Below are positions 6,166 to 47,775 of a stretch of 47,775 nt of DNA, in pieces (positions within the stretch are counted from its first letter, which is position 1; every line of letters starts with the position of its first letter). Made by a program: the position numbers and the translations under genes. The notes under the pieces were generated by a model, which did not search any database, had not been told where the DNA came from, and worked only from the letters and a program-made list of their open reading frames with translations. Location: sequence record PZ445409.1. One strand, 5' to 3'. This DNA is from a phage.

Positions 6166-6191
6166 TGAATACCACAAAATAGATTTGCACC

Positions 6192-6208
6192 TTTAACAAA
6201 AAGTGCTA
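6192..6208 (+). promoter_or_regulatory. inverted copy of conserved element upstream of capsid gene
   Basis: TTTAACAAAAAGTGCTA flanked by TTGCAC (6185-6190) and TATCAT (6207-6212) with 16-bp spacing; followed by hairpin+T-run 6215-6241. Confidence 0.45.
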
Positions 6209-9909: not shown

Positions 9910-9948
9910 ATTCCTGTAAAATCAATCTATCAAATAAATTAATTCCAC

Positions 9949-9966
9949 TTTTAACAAAAAGTGCTA
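9949..9966 (+). promoter_or_regulatory. inverted copy of conserved element abutting RBS of chaperone G
   Basis: TTTTAACAAAAAGTGCTA ends 2 nt before AAGGAG RBS; 15 nt before ATG. Confidence 0.45.
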
Positions 9967-9981
9967 TAAGGAGATCTTGAG

Positions 9982-10299
9982 ATGGCAAAGATGAAACTAA
10001 CGTTAGGCCCACTGCCTGATTTTAAACTGCCTGTTTCTTTCGTGCTTCCAAATGGTGATGAGCAAGTTATTGTTTTCACTGTGCGCCACAAGAAGGCAAG
10101 CGAGATTCACGAACGATACACGGCAGAAAAGCCGATGAGCGACGTAGAAATGATCACCTTCCTTGCTTCCGGTTGGGATCTGGAAGATGAATTTAACGAG
10201 GAAAACGTTGCTAAATTGCTGGATTATTACCCTTCTGCGTCATTATCGCTGACTGGTCATTATATGAAAGCACTTGCGGGGCAGCGGGTAAAAAACTAA
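9982..10299 (+). CDS. tail assembly chaperone (G)
   Basis: 105-aa ORF immediately before tape measure; ends at slippery heptamer A_AAA_AAC (10290-10296) then TAA. Confidence 0.7.
   Translation: MAKMKLTLGPLPDFKLPVSFVLPNGDEQVIVFTVRHKKASEIHERYTAEKPMSDVEMITFLASGWDLEDEFNEENVAKLLDYYPSASLSLTGHYMKALAGQRVKN
10290..10296 (+). other. -1 programmed ribosomal frameshift slippery heptamer A_AAA_AAC
   Basis: Heptamer sits 1 codon before the G stop codon; -1 frame continues open to 10616. Confidence 0.65.
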
Positions 10300-37650: not shown

Positions 37651-37693
37651 ATTATGCCCGACTCAAGGTAGGGCGTTTTAACAAAAAGTGCTA
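37651..37693 (-). promoter_or_regulatory. phage promoter unit (element + CATAAT)
   Basis: Minus strand element starts with methyltransferase-like gene stop TAG; hexamer at 37656-37651. Confidence 0.6.
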
Positions 37694-38377
37694 TTTTGAG
37701 TTTGCCTCAAATACGGCGCGAGCAAATCCTCGCGGAGTGAGGGAGCGTAGTTGCTTTGTTCTGGCAGACTTACCTCCTAAAAACTTCCAACCCCAAAAGA
37801 ACATTACTCCCTCATCATTGCGTAACGGCTTGCGTTCCGGTTCGGTAAATCCGTTGCCGCACCAGATAGCCGTCCTTTTTGTGTAGCCATCCTTTAGCGG
37901 CATCTTGGGGTGAAAAGATCCATCGGATTCGTCCAGGTAGTTACCAAAATCGCGCGGATTGAAATAAAAATCAGGCTTGCGCCATAGCGTTGATAGTCGG
38001 CCTACAGGATTCTCAGCCATCCAGGGAACACCGAAATGATTCCCGACAGTTTCAACCATGATTGCATTTTTGAGCGCGATCTGAATATCATCATCGCTTC
38101 GCACGTGCTTGCTTCCTGATTGGGCAAACATGGTGCAGTCTGGAAATCCAAATACAATATCTGGTTTTGGAATATCCATCTTACTGATTCTTTCAATGAA
38201 ATTTTCATCAATCCACATATTAACATAATGCAGATTTTCATTCTTCATCTTGATGAAATATTCGCCGTGATTTCCCTCATCAGCGTTAAAGCAATAGCAT
38301 TGATAGCCAGCCTTCGCATATTCAAGCAGCATGATTCCAGATCCATCAAACATTGAGTAAGCAACTTTATTTCCCAT
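37691..38377 (-). CDS. DNA C5-cytosine methyltransferase-like protein lacking a target-recognition domain
   Basis: 228-aa ORF from ATG 38377 (track start 38437 is TTG); motif I SMFDGSG, motif IV-like DIVFGFPDC, motif VI-like MAENPVG, motif X-like RSLTPRGFARA; no region long enough for a TRD; TAG stop is first triplet of promoter element. Confidence 0.55.
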   Translation of the reverse strand: MGNKVAYSMFDGSGIMLLEYAKAGYQCYCFNADEGNHGEYFIKMKNENLHYVNMWIDENFIERISKMDIPKPDIVFGFPDCTMFAQSGSKHVRSDDDIQIALKNAIMVETVGNHFGVPWMAENPVGRLSTLWRKPDFYFNPRDFGNYLDESDGSFHPKMPLKDGYTKRTAIWCGNGFTEPERKPLRNDEGVMFFWGWKFLGGKSARTKQLRSLTPRGFARAVFEANSK

Positions 38378-38894
38378 GATTTTTATGATACCCCAATTCA
38401 TTCTCGGCTTTACGTTTTGCGGCAACAGCATCCCCAAAACTGGAGAAACAACCTATATAAATCCTACTTCCTCGCTTTCCGCTTCCAACCCTTACAACCC
38501 ATTTGCCATGTTTATTTTTATGCACACCTGGTATGCCACTTGTATTGTTTTTCTGCTTTGATGTGTTTCGCATATTTCCTTTGTGATCTTTTAACTCAAA
38601 GTTTATTGCTCTGTTATCAGTCGTAATGTGATTTAAGTGATCAACCTCCATTCCTTCCGGTATAGGCCCATAGTGCATTTCATAGCATATTCTATGAACT
38701 TTCAGGTTGTAACGTTTTCCGTTTACAGTAAGTGCGGTTTCTAAATATCTGCCACCACTACCCAAAGAGCCAACCTCATTACCAGCATTGCAAGCATTCC
38801 ATTGTTTAACTCTTGATTGGTGAATATCTTTTCTTTCTTTCCAGAACAGCTTTCCAGTTTCTGGATTGTATGTAAAGTAATCGTGCCAATTCAT
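38367..38894 (-). CDS. HNH homing endonuclease with AP2-like DNA-binding domain
   Basis: 175-aa ORF with GAGGTGA RBS; HNH motif EVDHLNHITTDNRAIN; C-terminal GVHKNKHGKWVVRVGSGKRGSRIYIGCFSSF AP2-type fold signature; 3-prime end overlaps start of methyltransferase-like gene. Confidence 0.7.
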   Translation of the reverse strand: MNWHDYFTYNPETGKLFWKERKDIHQSRVKQWNACNAGNEVGSLGSGGRYLETALTVNGKRYNLKVHRICYEMHYGPIPEGMEVDHLNHITTDNRAINFELKDHKGNMRNTSKQKNNTSGIPGVHKNKHGKWVVRVGSGKRGSRIYIGCFSSFGDAVAAKRKAENELGYHKNHGK

Positions 38895-38902
38895 TCATCA
38901 CC

Positions 38903-39127
38903 TCAAAACGGAAAACAGCGAGGACAGCTAGGATCGAAATCGCATCCACAATCATTAACAATCATAGTTGGATCTGCAAATATTGCGCTTGATTCAAGAT
39001 TCATATCCATATCACCTAGCGCCTCATCAAGAGTCTTAATTTTATATGCCACTTCAAGCGCCGCCTCTTTATTTAGTCCAGCATCTTCTGCCATTTGAAG
39101 TCGCTCAAAAAAACCGTCTTGACTCAT
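38903..39127 (-). CDS. hypothetical acidic protein with C-terminal Cys cluster
   Basis: 74-aa ORF; ATG overlaps stop of upstream small membrane ORF; ends CGCDFDPSCPRCFPF. Confidence 0.5.
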   Translation of the reverse strand: MSQDGFFERLQMAEDAGLNKEAALEVAYKIKTLDEALGDMDMNLESSAIFADPTMIVNDCGCDFDPSCPRCFPF

Positions 39128-39618: not shown

Positions 39619-39831
39619 TCATTTCTTATTTTTCAGCTTAAATTTATGACCTGGAAGACCAGCGCCAATATACCCATCGTTGTATTCCATCAAATAAAGG
39701 TGAATACCATTATCTGAAATTACATGAGGATCTTCTTTGAGATTTCCCATTAGTGGATATTCTTTTTCGCGCGTAAATTTCCAAATTGAGTTATAAGTTT
39801 CTACGCATTTAAGTTTTAATTGCTTTGCCAT
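39619..39831 (-). CDS. hypothetical protein
   Basis: 70-aa ORF; TAATG overlap with upstream gene. Confidence 0.5.
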   Translation of the reverse strand: MAKQLKLKCVETYNSIWKFTREKEYPLMGNLKEDPHVISDNGIHLYLMEYNDGYIGAGLPGHKFKLKNKK

Positions 39832-40028
39832 TAGATGATCTCCATGTATGTTTCAAAGCCATTTAACTTGAACAGGCCGTTTTCACACTTGCGCACGTTC
39901 CAGGTTAGGCCGGAGTGGTACGCTTCCATATCTTCAAGGTCAATGGTGATTTCAGCACCTTTCTTAAACAGACCTTTCTCATGAGACTTGTCGCGCTTGA
40001 TAACCTTAACGTCAACCTGCGTTTCCAT
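39831..40028 (-). CDS. hypothetical protein
   Basis: 65-aa ORF from ATG 40028 with GAGGA RBS 7 nt upstream (track start 40034 is TTG); first gene after promoter unit 40060-40102. Confidence 0.5.
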   Translation of the reverse strand: METQVDVKVIKRDKSHEKGLFKKGAEITIDLEDMEAYHSGLTWNVRKCENGLFKLNGFETYMEII

Positions 40029-40059
40029 TTTCAATTCCTCGTTCGTTGTCGATGCGTGT

Positions 40060-41108: not shown

Positions 41109-41143
41109 TTGCTATCTCCTGAGCGGTTTGTTTTGATGTGTGT

Positions 41144-41186
41144 AATGTACCCGATCAGGTGGCCTGAGTTTTAACAAAAAGTGCGA
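41144..41186 (-). promoter_or_regulatory. phage promoter unit (variant element + TACATT), first leftward promoter
   Basis: Minus strand TCGCACTTTTTGTTAAAAC + 18 nt + TACATT + ACACACATC leader; AGGAG RBS; ATG 41108. Confidence 0.6.
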
Positions 41187-41218
41187 TTTGACGGTTAGCG
41201 CCAGGATTGTGATAGAAA

Positions 41219-41306
41219 TAATCAAAAGTAATCATTCGTAATCAAATCACGTCAAAATGATGATTGCCTTTGCAAATTTGATGAGAAAAGTAATCACGTT
41301 TAATCA
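41219..41306. repeat. 10-bp-phased GTAATCA/TAATCA iteron-like repeats
   Basis: TAATCA at 41219, 41229, 41239 and at 41291, 41301 (exact 10-bp spacing within each set); partial inverted copy TGATTG at 41261. Confidence 0.5.
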
Positions 41307-41726
41307 TTGGTTGCAGTGGAGATAGTGAAACCTTCCCCTCTTGCCTCACTTTTCCGCCTGGCTGTCAGTGGTTGTTATGTTCCGTTTTCGCCTGTTCTTT
41401 TGTTGACCTTCCGCAAAATACGATAACAAAAAATAACAAACAATACCTATATAATACATTGAAAAATAAGGATTATTTATTTATATGTATCTATATATTC
41501 TCTTTTGTTATCTTGGTTATTGTGGTATTTGGTGGGGGTATATAGTTTTTGTGTATCTATATGTGTGTATGGGTATGTAGGGGCATATATATCTATATGG
41601 CACTTTCCGCGATAAAACTTCGATAACAAGCAATGATAACATTGATTTATAAGGAAAAATAACGCCCATATTGTTATTGTGCCACCATATAAAATTGATA
41701 AAACACGCGGGAACAAGAAAAAACAG
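41307..41726. repeat. AT-rich regulatory region B, paralogous to region A
   Basis: TTCCGC..CGATAAC at 41409-41427 and 41605-41627; GTATCTATAT blocks at 41487, 41553, 41589; T/G-rich core 41499-41545; GGGAACAAGAAAAA at 41709-41722. Confidence 0.5.
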
Positions 41727-41755
41727 TTGACACATTAAATAGCATTATTGATAAT
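41727..41755 (+). promoter_or_regulatory. near-consensus sigma70 promoter (TTGACA-17-GATAAT with TG) for rightward operon
   Basis: -35 at 41727-41732, extended -10 TGATAAT at 41749-41755; preceded by GGGAACAAGAAAAA element. Confidence 0.6.
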
Positions 41756-43806: not shown

Positions 43807-43846
43807 CACGAATTGCTAAACGCGGGGTTATCGGCCCCGCTATAAT
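43804..43846 (+). promoter_or_regulatory. phage promoter unit (variant element + TATAAT)
   Basis: TAGCACGAATTGCTAAAC begins with kinase stop TAG; hairpin gcggggttatcggccccgc; hexamer 43841-43846. Confidence 0.55.
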
Positions 43847-44835: not shown

Positions 44836-45123
44836 ATGGCTAAAAGCAATCGTAAGATGTTGATTAACGCATTCGAAAAGGCAGCGCTTGAGCGTGGCTG
44901 GAATGACTCATTTCACACGGCAAACTGTATCCGCCGTTACGGATTCAAGAGTTGTCGCTCATGGGCGCGAGAAATGGCTTCATGGTATGATCTTGATGCG
45001 CATTACCTTGATATGGATTGCGCCCTGGTTGAAATGATTGAGCAGGCAGCACTAGAGAATCGACCATTAACGCAATATGATTTTGACGATTTTGTGCGCG
45101 ATGAAATCTATTACATGAGCTAA
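44836..45123 (+). CDS. hypothetical protein
   Basis: 95-aa ORF with AAGGAGG RBS preceded by a UUCG-tetraloop hairpin (44803-44820). Confidence 0.5.
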   Translation: MAKSNRKMLINAFEKAALERGWNDSFHTANCIRRYGFKSCRSWAREMASWYDLDAHYLDMDCALVEMIEQAALENRPLTQYDFDDFVRDEIYYMS

Positions 45124-45166
45124 TAGCACTTTTTGTTAAAACTTCCGCAAGGGCATTTGGTAAAGT
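45124..45166 (+). promoter_or_regulatory. phage promoter unit (element + TAAAGT)
   Basis: TAGCACTTTTTGTTAAAAC directly after TAA stop; hexamer 45161-45166. Confidence 0.5.
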
Positions 45167-45198
45167 GCCCTTATTGAAGCGAAACAGAGGAAAGCGCA

Positions 45199-45411
45199 AT
45201 GAAAATTAAAATCACCAAAATCGACACCATCAACGGCGACGGATCAATCACTCTTGAGCAATGCGGTTTGGTTGTTGGTGATGTGCTGGAGGTTGACGGT
45301 CATTTCAGCGACGGATCTTATTGTGTTATTGCGCCGCGTAACAGCGAGTTTATCAAGGCTGGCGACAATATTAGTGTTAACCATGACGAATGCGAGGTAG
45401 TAGAAGAATGA
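45199..45411 (+). CDS. hypothetical small acidic protein
   Basis: 70-aa ORF, about 14 Asp/Glu vs 5 Lys/Arg; after promoter unit 45124-45166. Confidence 0.5.
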   Translation: MKIKITKIDTINGDGSITLEQCGLVVGDVLEVDGHFSDGSYCVIAPRNSEFIKAGDNISVNHDECEVVEE

Positions 45412-45671
45412 TCACGATTAACCTGTCAGAGCAGCAAGCGCGCGTTATGTTAGCGGCCTTTGGCTGGCGAGATGATGACGGCATCCAGGCAACTGTTAAA
45501 ATTCCTGAGACGGTAGCGCGTGAAGTTTTTAACCAGATTGAACACGCATTTGTTCCTGTTGGCACTGATCAGGCAGAAACAGCGGCTTGGTTCGGAGAGA
45601 ACGGATACAGAGATCAGCAAGTCGAAAACTGGAAGCGCATAAACGAGACTATGGAGGAATCAGGTTTATGA
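45408..45671 (+). CDS. hypothetical protein
   Basis: 87-aa ORF from ATG 45408 (ATGA overlap). Confidence 0.5.
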   Translation: MITINLSEQQARVMLAAFGWRDDDGIQATVKIPETVAREVFNQIEHAFVPVGTDQAETAAWFGENGYRDQQVENWKRINETMEESGL

Positions 45672-45982
45672 TTTACATTCACTACTACCAAATCGGAACT
45701 AACGAGAACAAAAAAGAGCATCGTTTCATCCACGATGATTTGGACAAGGCAAAGGCACAGCAACAGGTTTTAGGCGGCGTCATTCAGGCTTTTGAGCCTA
45801 TAGAAGATATTGAGTACCGCGAGCATTTAAAAGATGTTGTTATTGATGAGATCTCTTGCTTGATTGATGATATGACAAATCACGGCCCTGGTTCCACGTG
45901 GGAAGACGCAGGATCTGTAACGTGGGACAAGGCCAAAATTAAGACGCTAAACAACTTTCGAGAGATTCTCGACGGTTTTTAA
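45668..45982 (+). CDS. hypothetical protein
   Basis: 104-aa ORF from ATG 45668 (ATGA overlap). Confidence 0.5.
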   Translation: MIYIHYYQIGTNENKKEHRFIHDDLDKAKAQQQVLGGVIQAFEPIEDIEYREHLKDVVIDEISCLIDDMTNHGPGSTWEDAGSVTWDKAKIKTLNNFREILDGF

Positions 45983-46573: not shown

Positions 46574-46807
46574 ATGATCAAATACAAATTAACCGTTTCT
46601 TTCCGTGATACCGTTATTCATCCTTTCTACAATAGCTTTGTTAACAGCTTTACAGTAGAAGTTACAGAGGATCAGCTAGACGGTGACGAAACTTGCATTT
46701 CTATTGGAAATGTTGCTTACCCGATTCACAACATTACCAGCATTAAGCGTGAGGTTGTCGCTGATGAATTACAAAGTGAAGATGAAGATCCGGCGAATGG
46801 GGCGTAA
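46574..46807 (+). CDS. hypothetical acidic protein
   Basis: 77-aa ORF with GGAG RBS downstream of sigma70-like promoter and leader hairpin; acidic C-terminus. Confidence 0.5.
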   Translation: MIKYKLTVSFRDTVIHPFYNSFVNSFTVEVTEDQLDGDETCISIGNVAYPIHNITSIKREVVADELQSEDEDPANGA

Positions 46808-46949
46808 TTGCCAATCATGCAAACAGGAATATGAATGCGTAGTTGATGCTCTTGATGAACTGGAAGCAGTAGCAAAAGCAAAAGAGCAATCGGGCGCTAA
46901 TCCTGAAACACATCAATTTTCAATTAACCTTGTGAGGGCTTTACAATGA
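46764..46949 (+). CDS. hypothetical small protein (start uncertain)
   Basis: 61-aa ORF in frame with track ORF 46683-46949; GAGG RBS before ATG 46764; overlaps upstream gene; CxxC...C motif. Confidence 0.35.
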   Translation: MNYKVKMKIRRMGRNCQSCKQEYECVVDALDELEAVAKAKEQSGANPETHQFSINLVRALQ

Positions 46950-47248: not shown

Positions 47249-47775
47249 ATGGCTAAAAATGTTGAGCCTGCTGTAAAGGCATTAAATTTCAAAGAGTTAT
47301 ACAATAAAACTTATGGCGATATTGTCACGCTAAACAACCGCCACAAGTACACGCCGGAACAGGTTTTTGATATGGCGATCCGCTATTTCACTTGGGCCGA
47401 AGAGAATCACATCCAGGCGGCTGAAACTGCTTCCTTTCAGGGTGACGTGTACGAGAGCAGAGTTTACAAGCCTCGCGTTTTCACGGTAAACGGATTCAGC
47501 TTGTATCTCGGCGTTACTGAGGCGGCTGTAAGCAAGTGGCGTAAAGAGCCTGGATTCTGCGATGTGATGGAGTTTGTTGATAAAGTAATTTACGAGCAAA
47601 AATTCCAGCTTGCGGCAAATAACATGATTAACGCTGGATTTATCGGTAAAGAGATCGGAGTGGAGAAGCCAGCAACAGTGAGCGTTGAAGCGAGCGCGGC
47701 AGCTAATGCAAGCATTGACGCAGTAACTGCCGATGAGGTGAAAGAGGCTGTGATTGATATTCTGGAGCAACTTTA
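47249..47775 (+). CDS. terS: terminase small subunit (3-prime end completed by nt 1 of window)
   Basis: ATG 47249 with AAGGAGG RBS; open to window end (175 codons + TA); HTH-like FSLYLGVTEAAVSKWRK; final TA plus nt 1 gives TAA overlapping terL ATG. Confidence 0.7.
   Translation, partial: MAKNVEPAVKALNFKELYNKTYGDIVTLNNRHKYTPEQVFDMAIRYFTWAEENHIQAAETASFQGDVYESRVYKPRVFTVNGFSLYLGVTEAAVSKWRKEPGFCDVMEFVDKVIYEQKFQLAANNMINAGFIGKEIGVEKPATVSVEASAAANASIDAVTADEVKEAVIDILEQL

What the first reader, a model, noticed from the sequence alone, without database searches (positions are those of the whole stretch)
45199..45411. Small strongly acidic early proteins: candidate DNA mimics or anti-restriction factors
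ORF 45199-45411 (70 aa, about 14 Asp/Glu versus 5 Lys/Arg) and ORF 46574-46807 (77 aa, acidic C-terminus), plus 38903-39127 on the minus strand, are small acidic proteins in early operons. This composition and size class is typical of Ocr/ArdA-like DNA mimics and some anti-CRISPR or anti-restriction proteins. No sequence homology can be asserted from the window alone.
Basis: inference. Interest (0 to 1): 0.4.

Follow-up and report, generated by a model that had tools for sequence, protein, structure and literature searches.

The report
Acidic SH3-like accessory protein, T1-like phage

Summary
ORF 45199-45411 (70 aa, 14 D/E vs 5 K/R, pI 4.3), ORF 46574-46807 and ORF 38903-39127(-) exist and are the three most acidic of 26 small non-structural genes. 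The window is almost certainly the complete genome of coliphage PeterMerian (Bas05, Drexlerviridae).

The anti-restriction reading fails a published test. Bas10 and Bas11 carry the gene and have seven EcoKI sites, and EcoKI restricts them 10^4-10^5-fold. Types II and III also restrict them. Bas05 itself has no EcoKI sites (about 6 expected).

The best reading is a dispensable accessory protein-binding module that may dock onto a basic surface of an unknown host or phage protein, as the SH3-like DNA mimic CarS does. T1 has an unrelated acidic protein in the same slot, and Braunvirinae have none. The finding is ordinary but uncharacterised, so interest is low to moderate.

The parts
45121..45143 (+). 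Copy of the Drexlerviridae intergenic 21-mer box (aaATAGCACnnnTTGnTAAAA; here ctAATAGCACTTTTTGTTAAAACT). It sits where a -35 element would be.
   Evidence: The 17-mer core occurs 13 times in the window against 0.41 expected. The same element is published for phage TLS with function unknown (PMC11447400). It is conserved upstream of the ORF in Bas08, grams, ESCO41 and IMG/VR contigs.
45149..45172 (+). 10-bp inverted repeat (AAGGGCATTT / AAGTGCCCTT) that encloses the -10-like hexamer TAAAGT (45161-45166). The hexamer lies exactly 17 nt after the box.
   Evidence: Fold of 45124-45215: -24.7 kcal/mol, z = -3.3. The arms differ but remain complementary in ESCO41, Shelby and the IMG/VR loci. A -10-like hexamer follows the box at 17 nt in 9 copies and at 16 nt in 1 of the 10 gene-proximal copies examined. 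Promoter function is inferred, not shown.
45173..45198 (+). Conserved leader (ATTGAAGCGAAAC) and ribosome-binding site GAGGA (45187-45191).
   Evidence: The leader motif CATCAACAACAAAC / ATCGAAACGAAC recurs downstream of other copies of the box. The RBS can be read directly in the sequence.
45199..45411 (+). CDS for a 70-aa acidic SH3-like small beta-barrel protein (PHROG 5684); this is the gene of the finding.
45408..45671 (+). Downstream gene overlapping by 4 nt (ATGA). It encodes an 87-aa DUF7180 protein (PF23805), also acidic.
   Evidence: Pfam E 1.7e-30. Homologues follow the ORF in Bas08, grams and Bas10, and follow the unrelated ST61 in T1. The gene is absent from this position in Shelby and ESCO41.
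45668..45982 (+). Third gene of the unit (104 aa, MIYIH... type, PHROG 11192), followed by terminator-like hairpins.
   Evidence: PHROG 11192, E 2.5e-37. A homologue directly follows the ORF in ESCO41 and Shelby. A terminator-like site lies at 45958-45972.
46574..46807 (+). Second ORF of the finding: 77 aa, a beta-barrel core (residues 1-62) plus a disordered acidic tail (63-77) that overlaps the next gene by 44 nt.
38903..39127 (-). Third ORF of the finding: 74 aa with an acidic N-terminal part and a C-terminal CxC...CxxC motif (PHROG 9323).
   Evidence: PHROG 9323, E 1.1e-36. Found in 449 phage records. The N-terminal 46 aa match T1 ST6 at 61% identity. No PDB or Pfam match. Structure not predicted.

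Best explanation
ORF 45199-45411 encodes a dispensable accessory protein found only in T1-like phages (Drexlerviridae). It folds as a single acidic SH3-like beta-barrel of 70 residues. It is the first gene of a short transcription unit that starts at one of the phage's repeated 21-mer promoter-like modules, and its stop codon overlaps the start of whichever gene follows (ATGA). The most likely mode of action is stoichiometric protein binding. The conserved acidic residues (D14, D28, E31, E50, D56, E64) and the invariant acidic C-terminus (E-x-V-V-E-E) would dock onto a basic, probably nucleic-acid-binding, surface of a host or phage protein and block or redirect it. The SH3-like operator-DNA mimic CarS works this way. 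The protein is not an extended B-DNA mimic of the Ocr/ArdA type and does not protect the phage from type I, II or III restriction. Shown or computed: the gene is real, the family is conserved, the fold prediction, the conserved charge pattern, and the restriction sensitivity of carriers. Inferred: promoter function, protein binding, and a basic target. Unknown: the identity of the target.
Confidence: 0.45

Rival explanations
1. One reading: an Ocr/ArdA-like DNA mimic that blocks type I (or other) restriction-modification enzymes.
For: The protein is small and acidic (pI 4.3) and sits in a non-structural block. Its acidity is conserved.
Confidence: 0.04
2. An inhibitor of a defence or DNA-end-processing system that the BASEL panel did not test (BREX, CRISPR-Cas, RecBCD, retrons, Gabija and others), or conversely a protein that such systems sense, as CapRel senses Gp54.
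For: It is a small, dispensable, acidic protein in a slot that is variable across the family and filled by a non-homologous acidic protein in T1. That pattern is typical of counter-defence loci (established knowledge). The authors of PMC11578894 propose the same for the neighbouring SH3-like Gp54.
Against: There is no homology to any known anti-defence protein. The sequence is highly conserved, with dN/dS 0-0.15 and the same length in every locus examined, rather than diversifying. No escape-mutant or screening literature mentions it.
Confidence: 0.22
3. A phage-internal role: a partner, chaperone or regulator of the co-transcribed proteins, or a cofactor that adapts host RNA polymerase to the 21-mer promoter class (by analogy with the T4 AsiA/MotA system).
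For: The gene is always first behind a 21-mer module and is translationally coupled (ATGA) to the next gene. The promoter class has a -10-like hexamer but the box replaces a canonical -35, which suggests an accessory factor. The TLS authors list the function of the repeat as an open question. Strong purifying selection fits a housekeeping phage role.
Against: The coupled downstream gene is not constant: it can be DUF7180, the MIYIH type or another type. Braunvirinae have the DUF7180 gene, and the 21-mer module was not examined there, but they lack this ORF, and T1 has an unrelated protein in its place. The ORF is itself expressed from such a module, so it cannot be the initiating factor.
Confidence: 0.15
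4. It is not a functional protein: a chance ORF or a decaying remnant.
For: None beyond its small size and the lack of annotation.
Against: It occurs in 402 phage records with the same length in every locus read, and has zero non-synonymous against 0.15 synonymous substitutions per site versus JLBYU26. It also has a good RBS, a confident fold prediction and position-specific conservation.
Confidence: 0.01

Closest known systems
CarS / CarS1 antirepressor of Myxococcus xanthus (SH3-like operator-DNA mimic; PMC2926617)
   Same: Both are monomer-sized, five-stranded SH3-like beta-barrels with nearly the same charge make-up. CarS1 has 16 D/E, 4 K/R and pI 4.1; ORF 45199 has 14 D/E, 5 K/R and pI 4.3. 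Acidic residues are conserved in loops that form the ligand face of SH3 domains.
Gp54 of phage Bas11 (PDB 9axb/9erv), the activator of the CapRel-SJ46 defence (PMC11578894)
   Same: It is a small (66 aa), non-essential, SH3-like beta-barrel protein of unknown primary function, encoded in the small-gene blocks of Drexlerviridae and expressed from the same type of 21-mer module.
   Different: It is not homologous (hhalign probability 0.4%). The true Gp54 homologue of this window is a different gene, at 39831-40034(-). Gp54 is a six-stranded barrel and only mildly acidic (net -2, pI 5.6 for the window's copy).
T7 Ocr (gp0.3) and ArdA
   Same: They are small, acidic, early-expressed proteins of mobile elements.
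   Different: Ocr and ArdA are elongated dimers that imitate long stretches of B-DNA, and Ocr is all-helical (established knowledge). ORF 45199 is a compact beta-barrel with half the charge density, has no sequence match, and its carriers are fully sensitive to EcoKI.
T1 ST61 (YP_003884.1)
   Same: It occupies the same genomic slot, behind the same promoter-like module, with the same 4-nt overlap onto the DUF7180 gene. It has the same size (69 aa), similar or greater acidity (17 D/E vs 3 K/R, pI 4.05) and an acidic C-terminus.
   Different: No sequence similarity is detectable by tblastn or profile comparison. Its structure was not predicted here, so I cannot say whether it is a functional analogue.

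Membership tests
Ocr (T7 gp0.3 family) | Sequence membership in the Ocr family | tested here: not met
   The Pfam scan at E <= 1 returns only a sub-threshold DUF5666 match. The PDB phmmer search at E <= 10 returns only DPH3 at E 0.59.
Ocr (T7 gp0.3 family) | Elongated all-helical dimer that mimics bent B-DNA | tested here: not met
Ocr (T7 gp0.3 family) | Protects the phage from type I restriction | tested here: not met
   Published plating data: Bas10 and Bas11 carry the gene, have 7 EcoKI sites and plate at 4e-6 to 2e-4 on EcoKI. This tests the Bas10 and Bas11 alleles, not the identical allele.
ArdA | Sequence membership in the ArdA family, and the ArdA fold | tested here: not met
   No Pfam, NCBIfam or PDB hit. 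The fold is a single 70-aa SH3-like barrel, and no ArdA structure is among the listed matches.
CarS-like SH3 DNA mimic | SH3-like five-stranded barrel that is highly acidic (pI about 4-5) | tested here: met
   The CarS1 values come from PMC2926617. The fold here is predicted, not solved.
CarS-like SH3 DNA mimic | Solvent-exposed hydrophobic pocket rimmed by acidic residues that binds a DNA-recognition helix | not testable with these tools
Only the linear map of conserved acidic positions could be made.
CarS-like SH3 DNA mimic | Sequence homology to CarS | tested here: not met
   No CarS chain was found in the PDB sequence search at E <= 10.
Gp54-Bas11 family (CapRel trigger) | Sequence homology to Gp54 | tested here: not met
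   hhalign probability is 0.4%. In the pooled PDB search only ORF 39831-40034(-) matches 9axb, at E 1.7e-15.
AbrB/SpoVT swapped-hairpin regulators (label in record OK272483) | AbrB/MazE-type domain, a swapped-hairpin barrel that binds DNA | tested here: not met
Methyltransferase type 11 (label in MN781674, NC_047938, MZ571833) | SAM-dependent methyltransferase domain (a domain well over 70 aa; established knowledge) | tested here: not met
   The protein has 70 aa and no methyltransferase Pfam or NCBIfam hit. The label is an annotation artefact.
DUF5666 (PF18914) | Score above the Pfam gathering threshold (27 bits) | tested here: not met
   The score is 19.7 bits, E 1.1e-3, over residues 6-41 only.
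PHROG 5684 (phage protein family, unknown function) | Full-length match to the family profile | tested here: met
   E 1.6e-28 over residues 1-70 against profile positions 1-75 of 75.

The most novel reading that the evidence does not exclude
The PHROG 5684 family, and the unrelated acidic ST61 that replaces it in T1, may be a new class of SH3-like local nucleic-acid mimics. In this reading, T1-like phages use them to neutralise a host DNA- or RNA-binding protein that the BASEL panel did not test. Candidates include RecBCD (for which I know of no inhibitor in T1-like phages), BREX, or a nucleoid or transcription factor. That would make it the first phage counterpart of the CarS mechanism.
Probability: 0.15. 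Interest if true: 0.6.

Novelty: new member of a known kind. Interest (0 to 1): 0.27.

Why it matters
T1-like phages are among the most frequently isolated coliphages and Klebsiella phages and are used in therapy collections. Even so, their block of small presumed-early genes is almost entirely unannotated, and how they shut off the host and degrade its DNA remains an open question (PMC11447400). This work gives one of those genes a confident fold class, a conserved charge signature, an operon context and accessory status. It also removes an attractive but wrong functional label, along with three wrong database labels. If the protein does sequester a host nucleic-acid-binding protein, it would extend the CarS type of SH3-based mimicry to phages. 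It would also join Gp54 as a second small beta-barrel effector of Drexlerviridae. As it stands, this is an ordinary uncharacterised accessory gene.

Tried and rejected
1. Ocr/ArdA homology: Pfam, NCBIfam, PADLOC and PDB sequence searches found nothing. PADLOC covers defence proteins rather than anti-defence proteins, so its silence carries little weight.

2. Zinc site formed by the three cysteines C22, C42 and C65: rejected. Only C22 is kept in distant relatives, while C42 becomes S, A or L and C65 becomes Y or F.

3. EF-hand or dockerin-like Ca2+ loop in DTINGDGSITLE: this explains the profile hits to large repetitive proteins, but the loop is not conserved in distant family members. I treated it as a spurious or lineage-specific resemblance.

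4. Identity with the CapRel trigger Gp54: rejected. A different gene in the window is the homologue.

5. Remote homology between ORF 45199 and T1 ST61: none found.

6. An obligate partnership with the DUF7180 gene: rejected, because the downstream gene differs between genera.

7. Paralogues in the window: none found.

8. The search for related loci with the divergent alignment failed because no stretch was conserved enough. A single distant member worked instead.

9. My first crude gene caller mis-called several small genes, so I replaced it with a list guided by the annotation of relatives.

10. Literature searches for Drexlerviridae anti-defence, early transcription and small proteins found nothing on this gene.

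11. A cross-phage correlation of gene presence with type I sensitivity is limited, because most Tempevirinae of the BASEL set have 0-1 type I sites.

Full report
**What the window is.** The window is a T1-like coliphage genome presented from the large terminase gene (1-1569) to the small terminase gene (about 47250-47775). Its last 4 kb are 97% identical to Escherichia phage JLBYU26 and 96-97% identical to many Warwickvirus phages (Drexlerviridae, Tempevirinae). The window has a length of 47,775 bp and GC 0.447. It has no EcoKI sites, one EcoRI palindrome (counted as 2), no EcoRV sites and 20 EcoP1_I sites. All of these values equal the entries for phage PeterMerian (Bas05, MZ501101) in S5 Table of the BASEL paper. 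The window is therefore almost certainly that complete genome. The record itself seems to be absent from the searchable phage collection.

**Checking the observation.** The three ORFs exist as described.
- ORF 45199-45411 encodes 70 aa with 7 D + 7 E against 4 K + 1 R (net -9, pI 4.34).
- ORF 46574-46807 encodes 77 aa (net -9, pI 4.27).
- ORF 38903-39127(-) encodes 74 aa (net -10, pI 4.05).

I built a gene list guided by the annotation of close relatives. On that list the three ORFs are the three most acidic of the 26 small genes in the two non-structural blocks. They form the end of a continuum, because the next three genes follow at -0.09 net charge per residue. Their charge density is about half that of T7 Ocr and close to that of Ugi (both reference sequences were recalled from memory).

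ORF 45199 is clearly a gene:
- It has a GAGGA ribosome-binding site.
- tblastn finds it in 402 phage records, essentially all Drexlerviridae of E. coli, Klebsiella, Shigella and Salmonella.
- It forms 37 close clusters in a 5.8-billion-protein database, and it has about a dozen distant small relatives among 1.84 billion representatives.
- The gene is exactly 213 nt in Warwick-, Tls-, Hanriver-, Henuseptima-, Nouzilly- and Webervirus.
- Against JLBYU26 it has dS 0.15 and dN 0. dN/dS is 0.03 against Bas08 and 0.12 against Bas10.

The other two ORFs are also conserved, in 101 and 449 phage records. The word 'early' rests only on position.

**What the protein is.** No curated family claims it. Pfam gives only a sub-threshold DUF5666 match (19.7 bits against a 27-bit cut-off). 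NCBIfam and PADLOC give nothing. PHROGs places it full-length in family 5684, of unknown function. Public records call it 'AbrB family regulator-like' or 'methyltransferase type 11', and neither label survives testing.

**Conserved features.** An alignment that includes relatives down to about 30% identity shows several conserved features:
- invariant glycines G23 and G27;
- a conserved T-L-x-E-C-G-F/L-x-x-G-D segment;
- a second G-D at positions 55-56;
- a conserved C-terminus, E-(C/Y/F)-(E/K)-V-(V/I)-E-E.

Acidic residues are kept at specific positions in at least 70% of members (D14, D28, E31, E50, D56, E64, E69, E70). K2, K4 and R47 are conserved basic residues. Net charge across the family is -3 to -12 and pI is 4.1-4.9. 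Of the three cysteines that looked striking among close relatives, only C22 survives in distant ones, so a metal site is unlikely. The profile's hits to very large repetitive proteins come from a DxNGDG-like loop that the family itself does not conserve.

**Context.** Seventy-five bases upstream of the ATG lies a copy of a motif, CACTTTTTGTTAAAACT, that occurs 13 times in the window against 0.41 expected. In the gene-proximal copies it is followed at 17 nt (16 nt in one copy) by a -10-like hexamer (CATAAT, TATAGT, TACATT; here TAAAGT at 45161-45166). The 17-nt spacer is often a GC-rich inverted repeat. A conserved leader (CATCAACAACAAAC type), an RBS and the start codon come next. The motif therefore sits where a -35 element would be.

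The same element was described in phage TLS as 18 intergenic 21-mers (aaATAGCACnnnTTGnTAAAA) upstream of start codons. Its function was left as an explicit open question (PMC11447400). Upstream of ORF 45199 the spacer forms a 10-bp inverted repeat (z = -3.3), and its arms differ yet stay complementary in other genera.

The ORF is thus the first gene of a short unit (45199-45982), and its stop overlaps the next start (ATGA). The next gene is a DUF7180 protein in Warwick-, Tls-, Hanriver- and Henuseptimavirus. It is a MIYIH-type protein in Nouzilly- and Webervirus, and something else again in an IMG/VR contig. There is therefore no fixed partner.

In T1 the same slot, behind the same module and overlapping the DUF7180 homologue ST60, holds ST61. 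ST61 is a 69-aa protein with no detectable similarity to ours, but it has 17 D/E against 3 K/R and an acidic C-terminus. In Braunvirinae (Bas01, Bas02) the slot is empty. Webervirus Shelby has an extra divergent paralogue that is also acidic. The window has no paralogue. This is the pattern of a dispensable accessory gene.

**Testing the anti-restriction idea.** The BASEL study measured plating of Drexlerviridae on cells carrying type I (EcoKI, EcoCFT_I), type II (EcoRI, EcoRV) and type III (EcoCFT_II, EcoP1_I) systems. [quoted passage not shown]

I confirmed by profile search that Bas10 and Bas11 carry the gene (E 1e-35 and 1e-33; Bas10 is 86% identical) and that Bas01 and Bas02 do not. The per-phage results are as follows:
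- Bas10 has 7 EcoKI and 5 EcoCFT_I sites. It plates at 4e-5 to 2e-4 on EcoKI, 5e-3 to 1e-2 on EcoCFT_I, about 1e-6 to 3e-5 on EcoRI, at most about 4e-6 on EcoRV, and 2.5e-4 to 5e-3 on type III systems.
- Bas11 plates at 4e-6 to 8e-5 on EcoKI.
- Bas01, which lacks the gene and has 3 EcoKI sites, plates at about 1e-4.
- Bas08 has a copy 97% identical to ours. It gave no plaques on EcoRI or EcoRV, but it has a single EcoKI site, so it is uninformative for type I.

The window itself has no EcoKI site where shuffles predict 5.97 +/- 2.55, and no EcoRV site. Its reported resistance is therefore explained by site avoidance. An effective inhibitor would make such avoidance unnecessary. Together with the fold and the lack of homology, this makes an Ocr/ArdA-type function very unlikely. 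The caveat is that the type I test used the Bas10 and Bas11 alleles.

**Most likely mechanism.** SH3-like small barrels are protein-binding modules. Two precedents make an acidic one in this setting interpretable.
- CarS1 of Myxococcus xanthus is an SH3-like monomer with 16 D/E, 4 K/R and pI 4.1. It binds the DNA-recognition helix of a repressor in a hydrophobic pocket rimmed by acidic residues, and so acts as a local operator-DNA mimic (PMC2926617).
- Gp54 of Bas11 is a non-essential 66-aa SH3-like barrel of Drexlerviridae. It binds the CapRel-SJ46 immunity protein, and its authors suspect an anti-defence role (PMC11578894).

I therefore propose that ORF 45199 makes a stoichiometric binder whose conserved acidic positions and C-terminal tail engage a basic surface of a host or phage protein. 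My estimates are:
- about 0.98 that the gene is real;
- about 0.85 that the fold is SH3-like;
- about 0.85-0.9 that it is not a type I-III anti-restriction factor;
- about 0.45 for the acidic protein-binding mechanism;
- about 0.2 that the target is a defence or DNA-end-processing system.

The main rivals are a phage-internal role, such as a cofactor for the co-transcribed proteins or for the 21-mer promoter class, and a role against untested defences.

ORF 38903-39127(-) belongs to PHROG 9323. Its N-terminal 46 residues are conserved as far as T1 ST6, and its C-terminus carries a CxC...CxxC motif that is not conserved in T1. Neither ORF matches a known DNA mimic or any solved structure by sequence. 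Both are uncharacterised accessory proteins. The restriction data argue against an effective anti-RM role for any gene of these phages.

**Verdict.** The object is an uncharacterised but ordinary accessory gene family, already catalogued as PHROG 5684. Its predicted fold is SH3-like, which makes it a new member of the known kind 'small beta-barrel phage accessory proteins'. Interest is low to moderate.

Noticed in passing
window 1-47775: The window matches the published descriptors of Escherichia phage PeterMerian (Bas05, MZ501101): 47,775 bp, GC 0.447, EcoKI 0, EcoRI 2, EcoRV 0, EcoP1_I 20. The record itself was not among the phage-collection hits, where the best match was JLBYU26 at 97%.
   Followed up: yes
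window 39831-40034 (-): This gene is the homologue of Gp54 of Bas11 (PDB 9axb/9erv; E 1.7e-15), the SH3-like barrel that directly activates the CapRel-SJ46 toxin-antitoxin defence. [quoted passage not shown] The conserved leader and RBS suggest the true start is the ATG at 40028 (METQVDV...), not the TTG at 40034.
   Followed up: partly
window 6189, 9947, 20739, 28035, 30524, 31595, 32010, 34833, 37674, 40083, 41167, 42506, 45127 (plus a degenerate copy at 43807): A repeated box, CACTTTTTGTTAAAACT, occurs 13 times against 0.41 expected. It is the 21-mer described in phage TLS with unknown function (PMC11447400). I add three points. A -10-like hexamer lies 17 nt after the box (16 nt in one copy), so the box replaces the -35. 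The spacer is often a promoter-specific GC-rich inverted repeat. A conserved leader follows (CATCAACAACAAAC type). Together these suggest a phage-specific promoter class that needs an accessory factor.
   Followed up: partly
window 6189-6205 (-) and 9947-9963 (-): Two copies of the box lie in reverse orientation inside the + strand structural operon, immediately upstream of the major capsid gene (6224) and of the gene at 9982. No -10 hexamer or gene follows them on their own strand.
   Followed up: no
L007 (phage T1) 6607-6816, gene ST61: T1 fills the slot of ORF 45199 with an unrelated 69-aa protein that is even more acidic (17 D/E vs 3 K/R, pI 4.05). It sits behind the same module and overlaps the DUF7180 homologue ST60 by 4 nt. 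It may be a functional analogue.
   Followed up: partly
window 41109-41747: This 639-nt AT-rich divergent intergenic region lies between the two small-gene blocks. It carries several short repeat families: GTATCTATAT x3, GATAACAA/TTGTTATC at least 6 times in both orientations, and GTAATCA x4. A near-consensus sigma70 promoter lies at 41727-41755. It could be a regulatory hub or a replication origin.
   Followed up: no
whole window: Recognition sites are strongly depleted: EcoKI 0 (5.97 +/- 2.55 expected from shuffles), EcoRV 0 and EcoRI 1. This explains the 'highly resistant' phenotype reported for Bas05 without any inhibitor.
   Followed up: yes
window 46764-46807: The acidic, predicted-disordered tail of ORF 46574-46807 overlaps the start of the next gene (46764-46949) by 44 nt in another frame. 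This is an unusually long overlap for this genome.
   Followed up: no
public records OK272483, MN781674, NC_047938, MZ571833 (L001, L002): Several small genes of this block carry implausible product names in public records: 'AbrB family regulator-like', 'methyltransferase type 11', '26S protease regulatory subunit 7', 'cytochrome C'' and 'Ellis van Creveld protein 2 like'. The two names given to ORF 45199 were tested here and rejected.
   Followed up: partly
L004 (Klebsiella phage Shelby) 1961-2233, gene Shelby_018: This is a divergent 90-aa paralogue of the ORF 45199 family (E 8e-11 to the family profile). It is also acidic (18 D/E vs 7 K/R) and ends in ...EGEYKVIEE. It lies two genes upstream of the orthologue, so the family has duplicated in Webervirus.
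   Followed up: partly
window 38367-38894 (-) and 37691-38437 (-): ORF 38903-39127(-) sits directly upstream of an HNH-type endonuclease-like ORF (175 aa). That ORF overlaps a DNA methyltransferase-like ORF (248 aa) in a region of low GC (0.39). This reading comes from the translations and from neighbouring annotations. No domain search was run on them.
   Followed up: no
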